The notes below the pieces were generated by a model, which worked only from the letters and a program-made list of their open reading frames with translations, made no database searches and was not told the DNA's origin. From contig CALWDY010000031.1 of the NCBI GenBank assembly GCA_944376825.1, positions 1 to 54,177 on the forward strand: DNA of 54,177 nucleotides, written 5' to 3'. A program made the position numbers and the translations under genes. This document shows, piece after piece, positions 5,462-54,020 of this stretch; position 1 is the stretch's first letter; every line of letters starts with the position of its first letter. Origin of the DNA: an uncultured Clostridia bacterium (GTDB lineage: Bacteria > Bacillota > Clostridia > Christensenellales > UBA1242).

Positions 5462-8400
5462 ATGAAAAGTATATATACATATTATAAAGAAAGATTAATT
5501 GAGATAAGTGGTAAAAATAGAAGTTTATACCTTAAAAATTTTAACAAAAAAAATGGTTATGATATTGGTAAAATTTTATATCAAGACCAAGAAAAAGCAA
5601 ATGAACTTTTAGAGCTTTTATGGAATGGAAAAAGTATTCCATTTAAACTTATTTGCAAAGAAAACAAAGAAGCAATTTTAAAAGCCAACAACATTGATGC
5701 AAAATTTCCTGACCAACAATTTGAAAACGAAAAAGACAAACAAAAGTTTGACAGGCAAAAAAGGGAATTTTCAAAAAAGGCGATTTTGCAGGAAGTTCAA
5801 AACCTTAAAAGTTTAAAGCGTGAAATTGAAGAAATAGAAAAGGAAACAGGTAGATATGAATTATATTTATGCTATCCTTTTGTTTATGGTGCTGTAAGAA
5901 ATTATGTTTTTAAAGCACCACTACTAATGTTTCCAATTGTTATTGATGTCATTGATGATTCAAATGTAAATATCTGTTTAAAATATGGTGAGAACATACA
6001 ACTAAACAAAGCACTTATGCTTGCAATGGCAGATGATGCGCATTTAAACTTGGAAGAAATGGAAATGGAGTTTGAATGTTTAAAACCAAAATTTAACAAT
6101 TTGCAAGCGCTTTTAAATTATTTAAAAACATTTGGAATAAAGTTTGATTACAGTTCAAGAAAAAACATTTTTCCATTTAATAGATATGGTGAGCCAAATG
6201 AAAGCAGTAACCTTGAAATTAAACATTTGTGTTTGTTGTCAAGATGCAGTTTGGCAAATTCCATTTATAACGATTATTCTGCACTTGAAAAAAGGCATCT
6301 TACAAATGACAGCATAAACGAACTTTTAAACACCAAAAAAACAAAACATAAAACAGCAAAATATTCAAATTTATATTTAATCAACAATGTTGACTATGCA
6401 CAAGAGCAAGTTGTTAGAAAAGTCAACGAAAGTGGCAACATGGTTATATATGGACCACCGGGAACAGGAAAATCTCAAACAATTGTAAATGTTATTGCTG
6501 ATGCAATTTGCAAAAACAAAAAAGTTCTTGTTGTATCTCAAAAGAAAGCAGCACTAGAAGTAGTTTTCAATAGACTTTCATCACTAAACAGCAAAGCGAT
6601 GTTTATAACTGATGCAGAAAAAGAAAAACGAGTTTTTTATGAAAGATGTTACACTGCACACGAAAATGTTTTGAATAGTTTTTACAGCGAAAAACTATAT
6701 AGAGACTATGAAGAAACAACCAAGCACCTTGAAACAGAAATTAACAATTTAAATGTTATATCAAATTGTTTAACAAACAAAACACCTTTTGGAATATCAC
6801 TTCAAGAAATGTACTATAATTCATACAAAATAGGGAAAAGGTCAACAGAGTATTCAATATACAAACAAATGCTTAAAGAAAAGCAACTTATGGCATTAAA
6901 TTATGAAGAACTAACAAAGGCGCTTAGCATTTTAAACGAAAAAAATAAGGCAGAAATATATTATAATTTTGTTGAAGAAAAAAAGAAAAATCCGTTTATT
7001 GACCACCTAAAAAGTGATTTGAGTGTTCATGTTGTAATTGAAGCGCAAAACAAACTTAAAAACTTGTGTCAAAAACGACAAGCATTGTTTGATGTTGCAA
7101 AATATAAATATTCAAGACAAATTTTGTCATATTACAATCAAGTAAAAGCAAACAAAAATGTTAAACCTCTTGTTAAAATGATTGCAAAATTTGAATATCC
7201 TGATGCAACTAAATTTTTAAACGCAAGTTACATTTTGTTTTTTATGTATCCAATTGCAAAATATAACATGATAAAAAAAGAAAAAATAATAGATCAAGAA
7301 TTCACAAAAACACTAACGGCTATAAATGAGTATGTAAAGGAATATGAGTTTTTAAAAAATGTTTTAACAGAAAGTGGCTACTTAATGGCACTAGATGGAA
7401 TTTTAAATGGAAATAATGCAATTATTAGGCTACTTCTTAGTGCTGTTGAAAACTATATTGAACTTAGAGATACAAACAATATACTTAAAAATCTTGATGA
7501 CTATCAAAAACTTGTTTTAAACTTTGCATACAAAAATACAAATACATTTGCAAAATATATGGAAGTTTTAAACAAACTATTGCCAATTAGAATTTATCAC
7601 GAAATAATTAAGTATGAAACATCACAAAAACAAATTCTTTCAAGCATAGTAGACTTTGAAAACATTAGGTCAAGAATTATAAGTTTAAAGAAACAACAAA
7701 ACGAATTAAGCAAACAAATTGCCGAGCAAAGTTTTATTGAAGAATACAAAAAAATGATAAATGGCAGTCCAACAAGCAAAGATTATATTTATCAAATTTC
7801 TAAAAAACAAAACTTTTGGCCAATTAGAAAAACAATGGAAGTTTATGGCGATTATTTATTTAAACTTTTCCCTTGCTTTTTGCTTTCGCCAGAAAATGTT
7901 TCAACAATTCTTCCACTTAAACGAAATATGTTTGATGTTGTTTTGTTTGATGAAGCATCACAGGTGTTTATAGAAAACACAATTCCAACAATATATCGTG
8001 GCAAAAGAGTGGTTGTTGCAGGGGACGCAAAACAATTAAGACCAACAACAACATTTATGAAAAGATATATGGGGGCAAGTGTTGATGACGATTTGGACTA
8101 TTCAACGCAAGCAGCACTTGAAGTTGAAAGTTTGCTTGACCTTGCAGTGTCAAGATTTGCAAGTAGCAACATTACATATCATTACAGAAGTAAAAACGAA
8201 GAACTTATCGACTTTTCAAACAAGGCGTTTTACTTTGGCAATTTGCAAATTGCACCAAATGTTTCAAAAAATATAAGACACAAACCAATAGAAAGAATAC
8301 TTGTTGACGGAATGTGGCAAGACAGAAAAAATATCAAAGAAGCACAAAAAGTTGTTGAACTTACAAAGCAAATTTTAAAAACAAGAAAAAACAACGAAAC

Positions 8401-14472: not shown

Positions 14473-14532
14473 TTAAAATTGAGTATTGACAGTCTGTTTG
14501 ATGCTATGATAAACTGGAAAAGAGGTGCAGAT

Positions 14533-14928
14533 ATGGAACGAAATTATTTATTGTCACAAGTAAAGTGGTTTTTTTGCGTAGAAAAACAAATTATTATGCC
14601 ATTGGTTGAAAATGCTAATGGAGATGGTTATATTGATTTAAAAAAGAAATGCGTTTTTCCTAAAAAAGACTTTCTTAATAAACTTGAACTTGCTTATAAA
14701 TGTGAATTGACAGAAATTTCTTCATATAAATTGATTTCAATATTATATGACAAAATTTCAATGGCAAAAATTGCAAAAAATTGCAAAGATTATTGTTTTG
14801 GAATACCAAATCAACAAGATATAGAAAATGCAGAGTACAATGCAACTAAATTATTAAGTCTTAGCAAAGAGATGGAAGATATGCTTTATGCTGAATATAG
14901 ACGCAGTGTTGCAGAAAGAGAGTTATAA
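14533..14928 (+). CDS. Hypothetical protein (131 aa)
   Basis: ATG 14533 follows AGAGGTG. TTGACA lies upstream at 14486 and a terminator follows. I recognised no family. Confidence 0.6.
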   Translation: MERNYLLSQVKWFFCVEKQIIMPLVENANGDGYIDLKKKCVFPKKDFLNKLELAYKCELTEISSYKLISILYDKISMAKIAKNCKDYCFGIPNQQDIENAEYNATKLLSLSKEMEDMLYAEYRRSVAEREL

Positions 14929-14957
14929 TTAAAACACTCAAGTTTAATAAAATCAAA

Positions 14958-14994
14958 TGCCAAGTTCGTGAAAGGATTTGGCAATTTTTTTTTT
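14958..14994 (+). terminator. Intrinsic terminator
   Basis: TGCCAAGTTC-gtgaaa-GGATTTGGCA stem (with G-U pairs) followed by 10 T. Confidence 0.8.
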
Positions 14995-15002
14995 AAAAGT
15001 GG

Positions 15003-15031
15003 TTGACATAAAACCACTTTTTTGTTATTAT
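15003..15031 (+). promoter_or_regulatory. SigA promoter of the str operon leader
   Basis: TTGACA (15003-15008), 17 bp spacer, TATTAT (15026-15031), extended TG at 15023-15024. Confidence 0.8.
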
Positions 15032-15035
15032 TTTG

Positions 15036-15280
15036 TTCGTGTGATTGTGTGCTTTTGCATGTAACACATTAAAGTCCTAATTTTGCTAGTTAGGCCAACA
15101 TTAACAAACAGCAGGTAGCAACTTTATTTTACCATTTGCTTTACCGATTACTGCACAAAATTTGTGTGCATGGTGCATGTTGTGTTAATAAAAGTGATTT
15201 TTCACTTATTTAAACACGAAATGTAATGGGCAATGTGGCAAATTAAAGTAATTTAATTTCAACATTGCTCGTTTTGTTTT
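15036..15280 (+). ncRNA. Candidate structured RNA / 5' leader of rpsL (family not recognised)
   Basis: Manually identified helices: 15036-42/15214-20, 15046-52/15057-63, 15076-82/15088-94, 15100-06/15183-89, 15152-57/15165-70, 15192-97/15202-07 and 15228-36/15262-70 (capped by an 8-bp stem with a GTAA loop), followed by a T-rich tract. Confidence 0.5.
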
Positions 15281-15318
15281 TAATGTTAATTTAGCAAATC
15301 TAAGTAAGGAGGGAGAAA

Positions 15319-15693
15319 ATGCCTACAATCAACCAGTTAGTTCGTAGTGGAAGAAAAAGTTTTGATAAAAAAAGCAAATCACCACTTCTAGAAAACTGTC
15401 CTCAAAAAAGAGGCGTTTGTCTAGCAGTTAAAACTACAACACCTAGAAAACCTAACTCAGCGCTTCGTAAAATTGCCCGTGTAAAGCTTTCAAATGGTCA
15501 AGAAGGTACTTGCTATATTCCAGGTATTGGACACAATTTGCAAGAACACAGCGTTGTTTTGGTTCGTGGCGGAAGAGTTAAAGACTTGCCTGGTGTTAGA
15601 TACCATATAATTCGTGGTGCGCTTGATGCTTCTGGTGTTGCAAAAAGAAATCAAAGCCGTTCTAAATATGGTGCTAAAAAACCAAAAAACTAA
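15319..15693 (+). CDS. rpsL: 30S ribosomal protein S12
   Basis: 124 aa with [22 protein letters not shown] and [15 protein letters not shown] is AAGGAGG. Confidence 0.99.
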
Positions 15694-53930: not shown

Positions 53931-54020
53931 GGAAGGATGTCAGAGTGGTCGAATGTGCTGGTCTCGAAAACCGGTATGCCCGAAAGGGCATCATGGGTTC
54001 AAATCCCATTCCTTCCGCCA
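53931..54020 (+). tRNA. tRNA-Ser (anticodon CGA)
   Basis: 90 nt. Acceptor stem GGAAGGA/TCCTTCC, anticodon arm CTGGT-ctCGAaa-ACCGG, long variable arm ATGCC-cgaaa-GGGCAT, T-loop TTCAAAT, discriminator G and encoded CCA. Confidence 0.97.

What the first reader, a model, noticed from the sequence alone, without database searches (positions are those of the whole stretch)
15036..15318. Large multi-hairpin RNA leader upstream of rpsL, where ybxF usually lies
Seen: about 290 nt separate a consensus promoter from rpsL. The region folds by eye into a multi-way junction closed by TTCGTGT/ACACGAA (15036-42/15214-20) with at least five internal helices. A long hairpin with a GTAA (GNRA) tetraloop follows (15228-15270), then GTTTTGTTTTT, which looks like a terminator or attenuator. 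Established: many Bacillota have the L7Ae-like ybxF gene here, and I know of no described S12-operon leader in Clostridia. Inference: a new r-protein autoregulatory leader or attenuator, or a separate ncRNA ending near 15280.
Basis: partly seen in the sequence, partly recalled or inferred. Interest (0 to 1): 0.7.

Follow-up and report, generated by a model that had tools for sequence, protein, structure and literature searches.

The report
New structured leader RNA before rpsL
The roughly 280 bases between a strong promoter and the ribosomal protein S12 gene encode a conserved, folded leader RNA that ends in a transcription stop signal; it is a new structural version of the already known "rpsL leader" attenuators, and the signal it responds to is unknown.

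Summary
The feature is real. A near-consensus promoter (15003-15031) starts an untranslated leader of about 281 nt. It holds a 5' hairpin, a P1 hairpin, a three-way junction (P2/P3/P4, 15101-15188), a small hairpin, then a hairpin plus U-run terminator (15228-15281), 38 nt before the rpsL start.

One copy lies just upstream of rpsL in 19 of 20 species of the genus. Compensatory base changes support the helices. The junction core (AAC-R-RCA-GGUR...YACC-GA...UGY-n-YGU) recurs in front of rpsL in six further genera of this family of uncultured, ~1-Mb-genome Clostridia, with strong covariation. No Rfam family matches.

The junction is closed by 15101-13/15174-88 instead.

The long-leader genomes tested lack the L7Ae-like ybxF gene that relatives carry at this position.

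Most likely this is a cis-acting attenuator of the rpsL-rpsG-fusA-tuf operon, probably read by an operon-encoded ribosomal protein. S7 has precedent. No antiterminator and no 16S resemblance were found, so the ligand and switching mechanism are inferred. It is a new variant of the known, structurally varied rpsL leaders.

The parts
14958..14992 (+). Terminator of the preceding 149-aa ORF (10-bp hairpin plus T-run). It marks the upstream boundary of the rpsL transcription unit.
   Evidence: Terminator scan.
15003..15031 (+). Sigma-70-type promoter TTGACA-17-TATTAT with an extended -10 TG. The inferred transcription start is near 15038.
   Evidence: 11 of 12 matches. A TTGACA/-10 pair sits at the same relative place in the genus and in the other motif-bearing genera (sequences).
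15039..15069 (+). P0, a 5'-terminal hairpin (GUGUGAUUGUGUGC/GCAUGUAACACAU).
   Evidence: In the MFE fold. A local 5' hairpin of differing sequence forms in all 11 genus sequences evaluated.
15076..15094 (+). P1 hairpin (CCUAAUU/AGUUAGG), preceded by the invariant AAGU.
   Evidence: Three of 6 pairs show compensatory changes and 100% of cells are paired.
15101..15113 (+). P2 5' strand (UUAACA-AACA-GCA). It closes the three-way junction.
   Evidence: RNAalifold found it unaided. In the genus 99% of cells are paired, with two compensatory pairs. Across genera the outer helix covaries at all 5 pairs and the inner helix at 2 of 6.
15114..15145 (+). P3 (GGUAG...UUACC) with a variable loop, followed by the conserved GA (15146-47).
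   Evidence: Invariant in the genus apart from a G-U/A-U switch at the fifth pair. Across genera it reads GGUG/CACC, AGUG/CACU or GGUC/GACC, so 2 of 4 pairs are compensatory.
15152..15170 (+). P4, a variable hairpin (UGCACA/UGUGCA).
   Evidence: Every genus member has a hairpin here with a different sequence, and 5 of 5 pairs covary. The columns were aligned by folding each sequence. P4 is absent or doubled in other genera.
15174..15188 (+). P2 3' strand (UGC-A-UGUU-G-UGUUAA).
   Evidence: It also has a competing downstream partner (see 15212-15223).
15192..15207 (+). P5, a small hairpin (AAGUGA UUUU UCACUU).
   Evidence: MFE folds. It is specific to this branch of the genus.
15212..15223 (+). 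Segment AAACACGAAAUG.
   Evidence: In the MFE fold it pairs with 15175-15186. A downstream partner for the P2 3' strand recurs with non-homologous sequence in L013, L015, L019 and L054 (fraction of shuffles at least as good 0.00-0.05; 0.06 for the window's own sequence).
15228..15281 (+). Intrinsic-terminator-like hairpin (GUAA loop, 15228-15270) plus U-tract GUUUUGUUUUU (15271-15281): the attenuator.
   Evidence: Predicted -15.3 kcal/mol and P(formed) about 0.95. A hairpin plus U-run sits at the same place in 10 of the 11 genus sequences folded and in 11 of the 13 sequences folded from other genera.
15306..15321 (+). Shine-Dalgarno AAGGAGG and the rpsL start codon (15319).
   Evidence: The 24 nt between the U-tract and the SD leave no room for a second promoter.

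Best explanation
This is the cis-acting 5' leader of the rpsL-rpsG-fusA-tuf (str) operon and it works by transcription attenuation. All rpsL transcription starts at the strong promoter at 15003-31 and must pass an intrinsic terminator at 15228-81. Upstream of the terminator lies a conserved sensor domain: the P1 hairpin plus a three-way junction P2/P3/P4, with invariant core AACAGCA-GGUAR...UUACC-GA...UGCRUGUUGUGUU. The fraction of polymerases that reads through the terminator is proposed to be set by a factor bound to this junction. The most likely factor is a ribosomal protein made from the same operon. S7 is a primary rRNA binder and the known str regulator in E. coli; S12 is the nearest gene. 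Excess protein would lower operon transcription. No RNA antiterminator is detectable. The binding might therefore act directly on pausing or termination, as L4 with NusA does in the E. coli S10 leader. Alternatively it might act by shifting the junction against the competing 'anti-P2' hairpin seen in this genus. Shown here: the promoter, the conserved covarying structure, one copy per genome, exclusive placement before rpsL, and the conserved terminator. Inferred: that termination is regulated, the identity of the ligand, and the direction of regulation.
For: Promoter, terminator and gene order. Fold z = -3.69. BLAST finds the leader in 19 of 20 genus genomes, always just upstream of rpsL. Model R1 finds exactly one hit per genome in 19 of 20 species. 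Genus alignment A3: 99.6% of cells paired, 10 pairs with compensatory change, 0 of 500 shuffles as good, and slid controls reach at most 49% paired. Seven-genus alignment A6: 98.3% paired, 9 of 15 pairs compensatory, covariation 0.579 against 0.202 shuffled and at most 0.145 slid. Outside the genus the motif is part of, or close to, each sequence's own predicted fold (P(motif) 0.61-0.96 in 10 sequences). A hairpin plus U-run lies between the motif and the SD in 10 of the 11 genus sequences folded and in 11 of 13 from other genera. There is no room for a second promoter after the terminator. Attenuators upstream of rpsL are a described, structurally varied class (PMC2965389). A three-stem-junction rpsL motif exists in Pelagibacter (PMC2704228).
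Against: No ligand evidence of any kind. Leader sequences are no more similar to family 16S rRNA fragments than shuffles (z from -1.6 to 2.6, no consistent site). No antiterminator was found: the terminator is predicted to form with P about 0.9 whether the junction is enforced or forbidden, and neither the P2 3' strand nor the spacer is complementary to the terminator's 5' arm beyond chance. In the genus itself the junction is not the predicted MFE fold (P(motif) 0.03-0.39). One genus member (L017) and two other genera (L056, L059) lack a clear terminator. Both structural alignments were made by hand and fitted to the structure.
Confidence: 0.55

Rival explanations
1. It is a riboswitch-like sensor of a small molecule or alarmone, such as a growth-rate signal. 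The three-way junction would be an aptamer that gates read-through into the genes for S12, S7, EF-G and EF-Tu.
For: The unpaired junction nucleotides are invariant (CA|GG...CC|GA). The layout is an aptamer-like junction followed by a terminator. The closing helix has a competing alternative pairing, as in riboswitch expression platforms. No 16S resemblance was found.
Against: There is one copy per genome, only before rpsL. The taxonomic range is very narrow: 7 of 58 sampled genera of one family, and only chance matches in 380 genomes of 41 other families. P4 and the P3 loop are freely lost, doubled or expanded, leaving a very small conserved core. No match to any Rfam riboswitch.
Confidence: 0.12
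2. It is an independent small RNA of about 245 nt, running from promoter to terminator, with a function in trans. rpsL would be expressed by leaky read-through.
For: A strong promoter and a strong terminator delimit a structured RNA. The terminated product would exist in any attenuation scheme.
Against: rpsL has no other promoter, so the terminator must be passed to make essential, abundant proteins. The RNA is always fused to rpsL, one copy per genome. Related genera carry the same core without a terminator (L056, L059).
Confidence: 0.1
3. It is an RNA element that acts on RNA polymerase, or on mRNA stability and processing, without sensing anything. Examples are a processive antitermination element or a 5' stabiliser that ensures efficient transcription of a long ribosomal operon.
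For: The terminator forms regardless of junction state in the models. A 5'-terminal hairpin P0 is present in every genus member evaluated. The str genes are followed on the same strand by further ORFs of ribosomal-protein size, which were not annotated here.
Against: There is no boxA-like conserved single strand; the only boxA-like string (UUAACAA) lies in the P2 outer helix, which covaries freely between genera. Keeping a strong terminator only to override it constitutively is hard to explain.
Confidence: 0.1
4. It is non-functional spacer left after loss of ybxF, and conservation merely reflects recent common descent.
For: ybxF occupies this position in relatives and is absent here.
Against: tblastn finds no ybxF remnant (best E = 1.3). 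The core is far better conserved than its flanks. Compensatory changes keep four helices within the genus and across seven genera.
Confidence: 0.03

Closest known systems
'Multiform' rpsL-leader transcription attenuators (Naville & Gautheret 2010, PMC2965389; earlier Merino & Yanofsky predictions, as cited there; Rfam rpsL_psuedo and rpsL_ricks, names from memory)
   Same: An intrinsic terminator lies between the promoter and rpsL of the rpsL-rpsG-fusA-tuf operon. The structure is lineage-specific. The ligand is presumed to be a ribosomal protein and is unknown.
   Different: The sequence and fold are different and no Rfam model matches, even at E up to 10. The published leaders each had a putative antiterminator; none is detectable here. 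The sensor here is a three-way junction with a defined conserved core shared by seven genera.
Pelagibacter rpsL motif (Meyer et al. 2009, PMC2704228)
   Same: It lies in the 5' UTR of rpsL, has a bulged closing stem leading to a three-stem junction with one freely varying hairpin, and its ligand is unknown.
   Different: I saw no shared conserved sequence when I read the published alignment by eye. The phylum is different. Its authors do not describe a terminator as part of it. It is probably an independent invention.
E. coli S7 translational operator in the rpsL-rpsG intercistronic region (own knowledge; cited in PMC2965389 and PMC2704228)
   Same: It provides feedback control of the same operon by an operon-encoded primary rRNA-binding protein.
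   Different: It lies between rpsL and rpsG, acts on translation and is confined to Gammaproteobacteria. Here the element is upstream of rpsL and carries a terminator.
E. coli S10 operon leader: L4- and NusA-dependent attenuation (own knowledge; cited in PMC2704228)
   Same: Premature termination occurs in a ribosomal operon leader without an antiterminator switch. The protein acts on the paused polymerase at the terminator hairpin. This is the mechanism most compatible.
   Different: The operon, protein and RNA are different. No evidence here shows NusA or pausing is involved.
Firmicutes and Clostridia r-leaders catalogued by Eckert & Weinberg 2020 (PMC7247131)
   Same: They are the same kind of object: a conserved structured 5' UTR of a ribosomal protein operon.
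   Different: Their table lists no leader for S12 or S7.

Membership tests
Any Rfam 15 family (rpsL_psuedo, rpsL_ricks, other r-protein leaders, 6S, riboswitches) | Covariance-model score at or above the family's gathering threshold | tested here: not met
   The only hit in the window is a tRNA at 53931. In the permissive scan of 14850-15450 the best score is 20.7 bits against thresholds of 40-110, and no rpsL or 6S family is listed. Twenty loci from other genera give nothing upstream of rpsL.
rpsL-leader attenuators (Naville & Gautheret 2010) | Intrinsic terminator (hairpin plus U-run) between the transcription start and the rpsL start codon | tested here: met
   Hairpin 15228-70 at -15.3 kcal/mol plus GUUUUGUUUUU. 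It is conserved across the genus and in most other motif-bearing genera.
rpsL-leader attenuators (Naville & Gautheret 2010) | Alternative antiterminator structure that competes with the terminator | tested here: not met
   P(terminator) is 0.76-0.99 with the junction free, enforced or forbidden, and changes by at most 0.15, in 16 sequences. Duplexes of the spacer or the P2 3' strand with the terminator's 5' arm are not better than shuffles. Only thermodynamic models were used; kinetic competition was not tested.
rpsL-leader attenuators (Naville & Gautheret 2010) | Placed directly upstream of rpsL | tested here: met
   rpsL follows the element in all 19 genus genomes that hold it. In the window, ORFs of rpsG, fusA and tuf size come next; they were not annotated.
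Autoregulatory ribosomal-protein leader | Conserved secondary structure with covariation in the 5' UTR of an r-protein operon | tested here: met
   Both rest on hand alignments fitted to the structure. Independent support comes from RNAalifold and single-sequence folds.
Autoregulatory ribosomal-protein leader | Binds a ribosomal protein encoded in the regulated operon | not testable with these tools
   This needs binding and termination assays with S7 and S12.
Autoregulatory ribosomal-protein leader | Resemblance to the protein's rRNA binding site (common, not obligatory) | tested here: not met
   Local alignment of 12 leaders against 16S fragments of three family genomes gives z from -1.6 to 2.6 and no consistent site. 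Short matches seen by eye (ACAGGUG, GCUCGUG, GGUGCAUG) are at chance level, not conserved, or absent from the family's own 16S. 23S rRNA and structural mimicry were not tested.
Riboswitch | The same aptamer recurs before several genes of one pathway, or across wide taxa | tested here: not met
   One copy per genome, only before rpsL. Seven of 58 sampled genera in one family. Only chance matches in 380 genomes of 41 other families.
K-turn or L7Ae (YbxF)-binding element | C-stem, 3-nt bulge and tandem G.A/A.G pairs; an L7Ae-family protein present in the cell | tested here: not met
   The nucleotides 5' of P3 on the continuous strand are CA, not GA (sequence). PF01248 is absent from this 97%-complete genome and from all 39 long-leader relatives tested.

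The most novel reading that the evidence does not exclude
The small conserved core is a helix with the bulge ...RCA|GGUR-loop-YACC|GA(A)n|UGY.... It may be the receptor for something other than S7 or S12. One candidate is a small-molecule or alarmone signal of translational status. Another is RNA polymerase or a Nus factor directly. Either would set transcription of S12, S7, EF-G and EF-Tu without any antiterminator, which would be a new attenuation logic. It may have arisen in lineages that lost the L7Ae-like YbxF gene from this exact position.
Probability: 0.12. Interest if true: 0.8.

Novelty: new variant of a known kind. Interest (0 to 1): 0.45.

Why it matters
Feedback control of the str operon (S12, S7, EF-G, EF-Tu) is understood only in Gammaproteobacteria. 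Elsewhere rpsL leaders are predicted but structurally unrelated, and their ligands are unknown. This element offers a compact candidate to test: a defined conserved core, natural minimal versions of about 45 nt in sister genera, and a clear terminator read-out. It could show which factor controls the operon in Clostridia and whether termination can be regulated without an antiterminator. Within this family, genomes carry either ybxF or a long structured leader in front of rpsL. That exclusion is a small evolutionary puzzle worth a look. The organisms are uncultured, so tests must use heterologous or in vitro systems.

Tried and rejected

2. Classical terminator/antiterminator switch: not found.

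3. 16S rRNA mimicry. Eye matches to h34/h35 (ACAGGUG, GCUCGUG), GGUGCAUG, GCUAGU and GAAUAC are short, not conserved in the genus, or absent from the family's own 16S, which reads ACAGAUGG. The formal test was negative.

4. boxA-like UUAACAA lies in a helix that covaries.

5. K-turn or YbxF site: wrong nucleotides, and no L7Ae protein in the genome.

6. Degraded ybxF: no remnant.

7. Leader peptide: the nine small ORFs of 10 or more codons all lack an SD. The conserved UGCRUGUUGUGUU is invariant at all codon positions and pairs with P2.

8. Pelagibacter rpsL motif: no shared conserved sequence by eye.

9. Broad covariance model. MAFFT cannot align the variable loops. The N-padded model R2 is weak: its own seeds score 11-52 bits and its alignments slip register. 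No model-based search beyond the family was therefore done, and the third model was not built.

10. Exact-pattern scan of 185,579 species genomes for the genus core: only this genus, plus one chance hit in coding DNA.

11. Three-block pattern probe in 401 genomes of the order: all six hits outside this genome are chance matches with no rpsL nearby. They are no more frequent than the reversed-pattern control.

Full report
**What is in the sequence**

The window carries a near-consensus promoter, TTGACA-17-TATTAT with an upstream TG, at 15003-15031. It lies immediately after the terminator of a 149-aa ORF of unknown function. rpsL starts at 15319 and its product matches Pfam S12. It is followed by ORFs of the size and order expected for rpsG, fusA and tuf. 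The leader between them is about 281 nt. It has no Shine-Dalgarno-preceded small ORF and folds better than all 200 dinucleotide shuffles (z = -3.69).

**Source organism and conservation in the genus**

The genome is a 1.05-Mb, 97%-complete metagenome-assembled genome with no 16S gene. The public records of its relatives are titled "uncultured Christensenella sp." or "uncultured Clostridia bacterium". BLAST with the leader finds it in 19 of 20 species of the genus, and in each case rpsL follows directly. The most conserved stretch is 15071-15190, not the flanks. A covariance model of this core (R1) finds exactly one hit per genome in 19 of 20 species. The missing species is an 85%-complete, 270-contig assembly. 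An exact-pattern scan of one genome for each of 185,579 species found the genus-type core only in this genus, plus one chance hit inside a coding region.

**Structure of the genus leader**

- RNAalifold, run unaided, recovered a long-range helix pairing 15101-13 with 15174-88, and the base of P3.
- Every genus member folds a P1 hairpin and a P4 hairpin at the same places, with different sequences.
- On a hand alignment of 16 genus sequences, the structure P1 + P2 + P3 + P4 has 99.6% of cells paired. Ten pairs show compensatory change. None of 500 column shuffles does as well, and partners slid by 1-3 columns reach at most 49% paired.
- The alignment was fitted to the structure, and P4 was aligned by folding. 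P3 is nearly invariant in the genus, so the genus data say little about it.
Outside the closest relatives, the 5' segment and the pre-terminator spacer are not complementary beyond chance. The 5' segment forms its own hairpin, P0.

**A wider motif in the family**

I read the rpsL upstream regions of 99 genomes of the family, chosen without regard to the leader. The junction core recurs in six further genera: g31, g56, g54, g68, g4 and g40. Its form is [outer helix]-A-ACR-RCA-GGUR-[loop]-YACC-GA-[0 to 2 hairpins]-UGY-(n)-YGU-[outer helix]. Each copy lies behind its own strong promoter.

On a 20-sequence hand alignment (A6):
- 98.3% of cells pair.
- Nine of 15 pairs have compensatory changes.
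- The outer helix varies completely (UAACA/UGUUA, AAACC/GGUUU, ACUUU/GAAGU, CAUUC/GAAUG, AGCAU/GUGCU and others).
- P3 switches between GGUG/CACC, AGUG/CACU, GGUC/GACC and GGUA/UACC.
- The covariation score is 0.579, against 0.202 for shuffles and at most 0.145 for slid partners.

Independently of my alignment, single-sequence partition functions give the motif a probability of 0.61-0.96 in all ten non-genus sequences tested. The smallest natural forms (L055, L063, L050) are 42-45 nt. They consist of one helix interrupted by a 3'-side bulge, GAAAA or GUAUA, next to P3.

A variant, GCACAGGUGG...CCACCGAGUAAGA, occurs in genus g29. Other genera of the family carry visibly different leaders, so the published word "multiform" fits this family as well.

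**Distribution and ybxF**

- No Rfam family reaches threshold in the window, in a permissive scan of the leader, or in 20 loci from other genera.
- A three-block pattern probe of 401 genomes spanning 42 families of the order gave six hits outside this genome. All are chance matches (most clearly inside coding sequence) with no rpsL nearby, and they are no more frequent than the reversed-pattern control. The probe detects only the canonical form of the motif.
- In the 11 readable rpsL upstream regions from other families of the order, most (about 7) show an L7Ae-like ybxF reading frame ending just upstream of rpsL (read by eye).
- Within this family, PF01248 is present in 8 of 47 genomes tested, each time directly upstream of rpsL. 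It is absent from all 39 long-leader genomes tested and from this genome.
- The leader holds no ybxF remnant.

**Expression platform and mechanism**

A strong hairpin followed by a U-run lies between the motif and the SD in 10 of the 11 genus sequences folded and in 11 of 13 from other genera. Only 24 nt separate the U-tract from the SD, so rpsL has no other promoter. Every rpsL transcript must therefore pass this terminator, which makes it an attenuator whose efficiency matters.

I looked for the usual switch and did not find one:
- The terminator's predicted probability stays between 0.76 and 0.99, and changes by at most 0.15, whether the junction is left free, enforced or forbidden (16 sequences).
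- Neither the P2 3' strand nor the spacer pairs with the terminator's 5' arm better than shuffles.

What does recur in this genus is a downstream partner for the P2 3' strand. This 'anti-P2' partner is 15212-23 in the window. It has non-homologous sequences in the other branches (fraction of shuffles at least as good 0.00-0.06), and it makes the junction a minority fold in the models (P 0.03-0.39).

I therefore favour factor-dependent attenuation in which binding stabilises the junction. The effect on termination would be either direct, as with L4 and NusA at the E. coli S10 leader (own knowledge), or kinetic. This step is inference.

**Ligand**

Nothing identifies the ligand. S7 is favoured by precedent and S12 by proximity. 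Leader sequences are not more similar to 16S fragments from three family genomes than shuffles are. The short matches I noticed by eye do not hold up. K-turn, boxA and leader-peptide readings were rejected.

**Comparison with what is known**

Attenuators upstream of rpsL were predicted in many bacteria. They were called a "multiform" leader because no common structure exists, and each published form had a putative antiterminator (PMC2965389). A three-stem-junction rpsL motif is known from Pelagibacter (PMC2704228). Its alignment shares no conserved sequence with this one by eye. The 2020 catalogue of new r-leaders lists none for S12 or S7 (PMC7247131). I treated these as leads only. One of them pointed me to the Naville paper, which I then read.

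**Limits**

- Both structural alignments are hand-made. To pass them through the alignment tool unchanged, I padded gaps with N and trimmed long loops in A6.
- A sensitive broad covariance model could not be built with the tools available. The true range of the wider motif may therefore be underestimated.

Noticed in passing
Loci L073-L149 (family) and L155-L166 (other families of the order), about 45-50 nt upstream of the rpsL ATG; absent from the window: A short hairpin whose loop reads (A/U)GGGUUG(A/C) precedes the rpsL SD in many family genomes. The loose pattern matched 55 of 99, and roughly 40 of those are this hairpin by eye. It also occurs in 8 of 11 other families of the order, whether or not ybxF is present. 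The stems differ in sequence but keep pairing. It is not in Rfam. It may be the widespread, ancestral rpsL operator of this order; this genus lacks it and has a terminator instead.
   Followed up: partly
Family genomes G043, G052, G085, G088, G089, G098, G129, G136 against 39 others: Mutual exclusion is complete within the family. An L7Ae-like ybxF gene is present only where it sits directly upstream of rpsL (8 of 8). It is absent from every tested genome that has a long structured rpsL leader, including this one.
   Followed up: partly
L046, L051, L053 (genus g29); L066, L067, L069 (g55); L057, L058, L061 (g42); L073, L076, L078; L086-L088; L094, L096, L100: The family holds at least six further, mutually different, conserved-looking rpsL leaders, each behind a strong promoter. 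The g29 type (GCACAGGUGG...CCACCGAGUAAGA) shares the CAGGUGG/CCACCGA hairpin with the motif studied here.
   Followed up: no
window 15271-15290 against 15098-15110: The P2 5' strand (AACAUUAACAAAC) is also complementary to the U-tract and the bases just after it (GUUUUUAAUGUU). The equivalent UUUUUUGUUUAAUGU is conserved across the genus. The full-leader MFE fold uses this pairing. Its meaning is unknown.
   Followed up: partly
window 15292-15299 (UAGCAAAU): A short string, (A)UAGCAAAU, between the terminator and the SD is shared by several branches of the genus and by L082 of another genus (g40).
   Followed up: no
L017 (genome G012): This genus member has a 50-nt insertion inside P4 and a compensatory AAC/GUU to GAC/GUC change in P2. 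It has no convincing terminator before rpsL.
   Followed up: partly
window 14479-14928 (+): A 149-aa ORF with its own promoter-like site (14486-14515) and terminator has no Pfam match. The genes upstream of the str operon are two ABC-transporter genes, a TIM-barrel/GNAT fusion on the minus strand, and a DUF4011 helicase-nuclease. rpoB and rpoC are not there.
   Followed up: no
L032 (OZ251221.1, 4.05-Mb MAG chromosome) 6903-6941: This is the only match to the genus core pattern outside the genus. It lies in GC-richer coding sequence without the other motif parts, so it is a chance match.
   Followed up: yes
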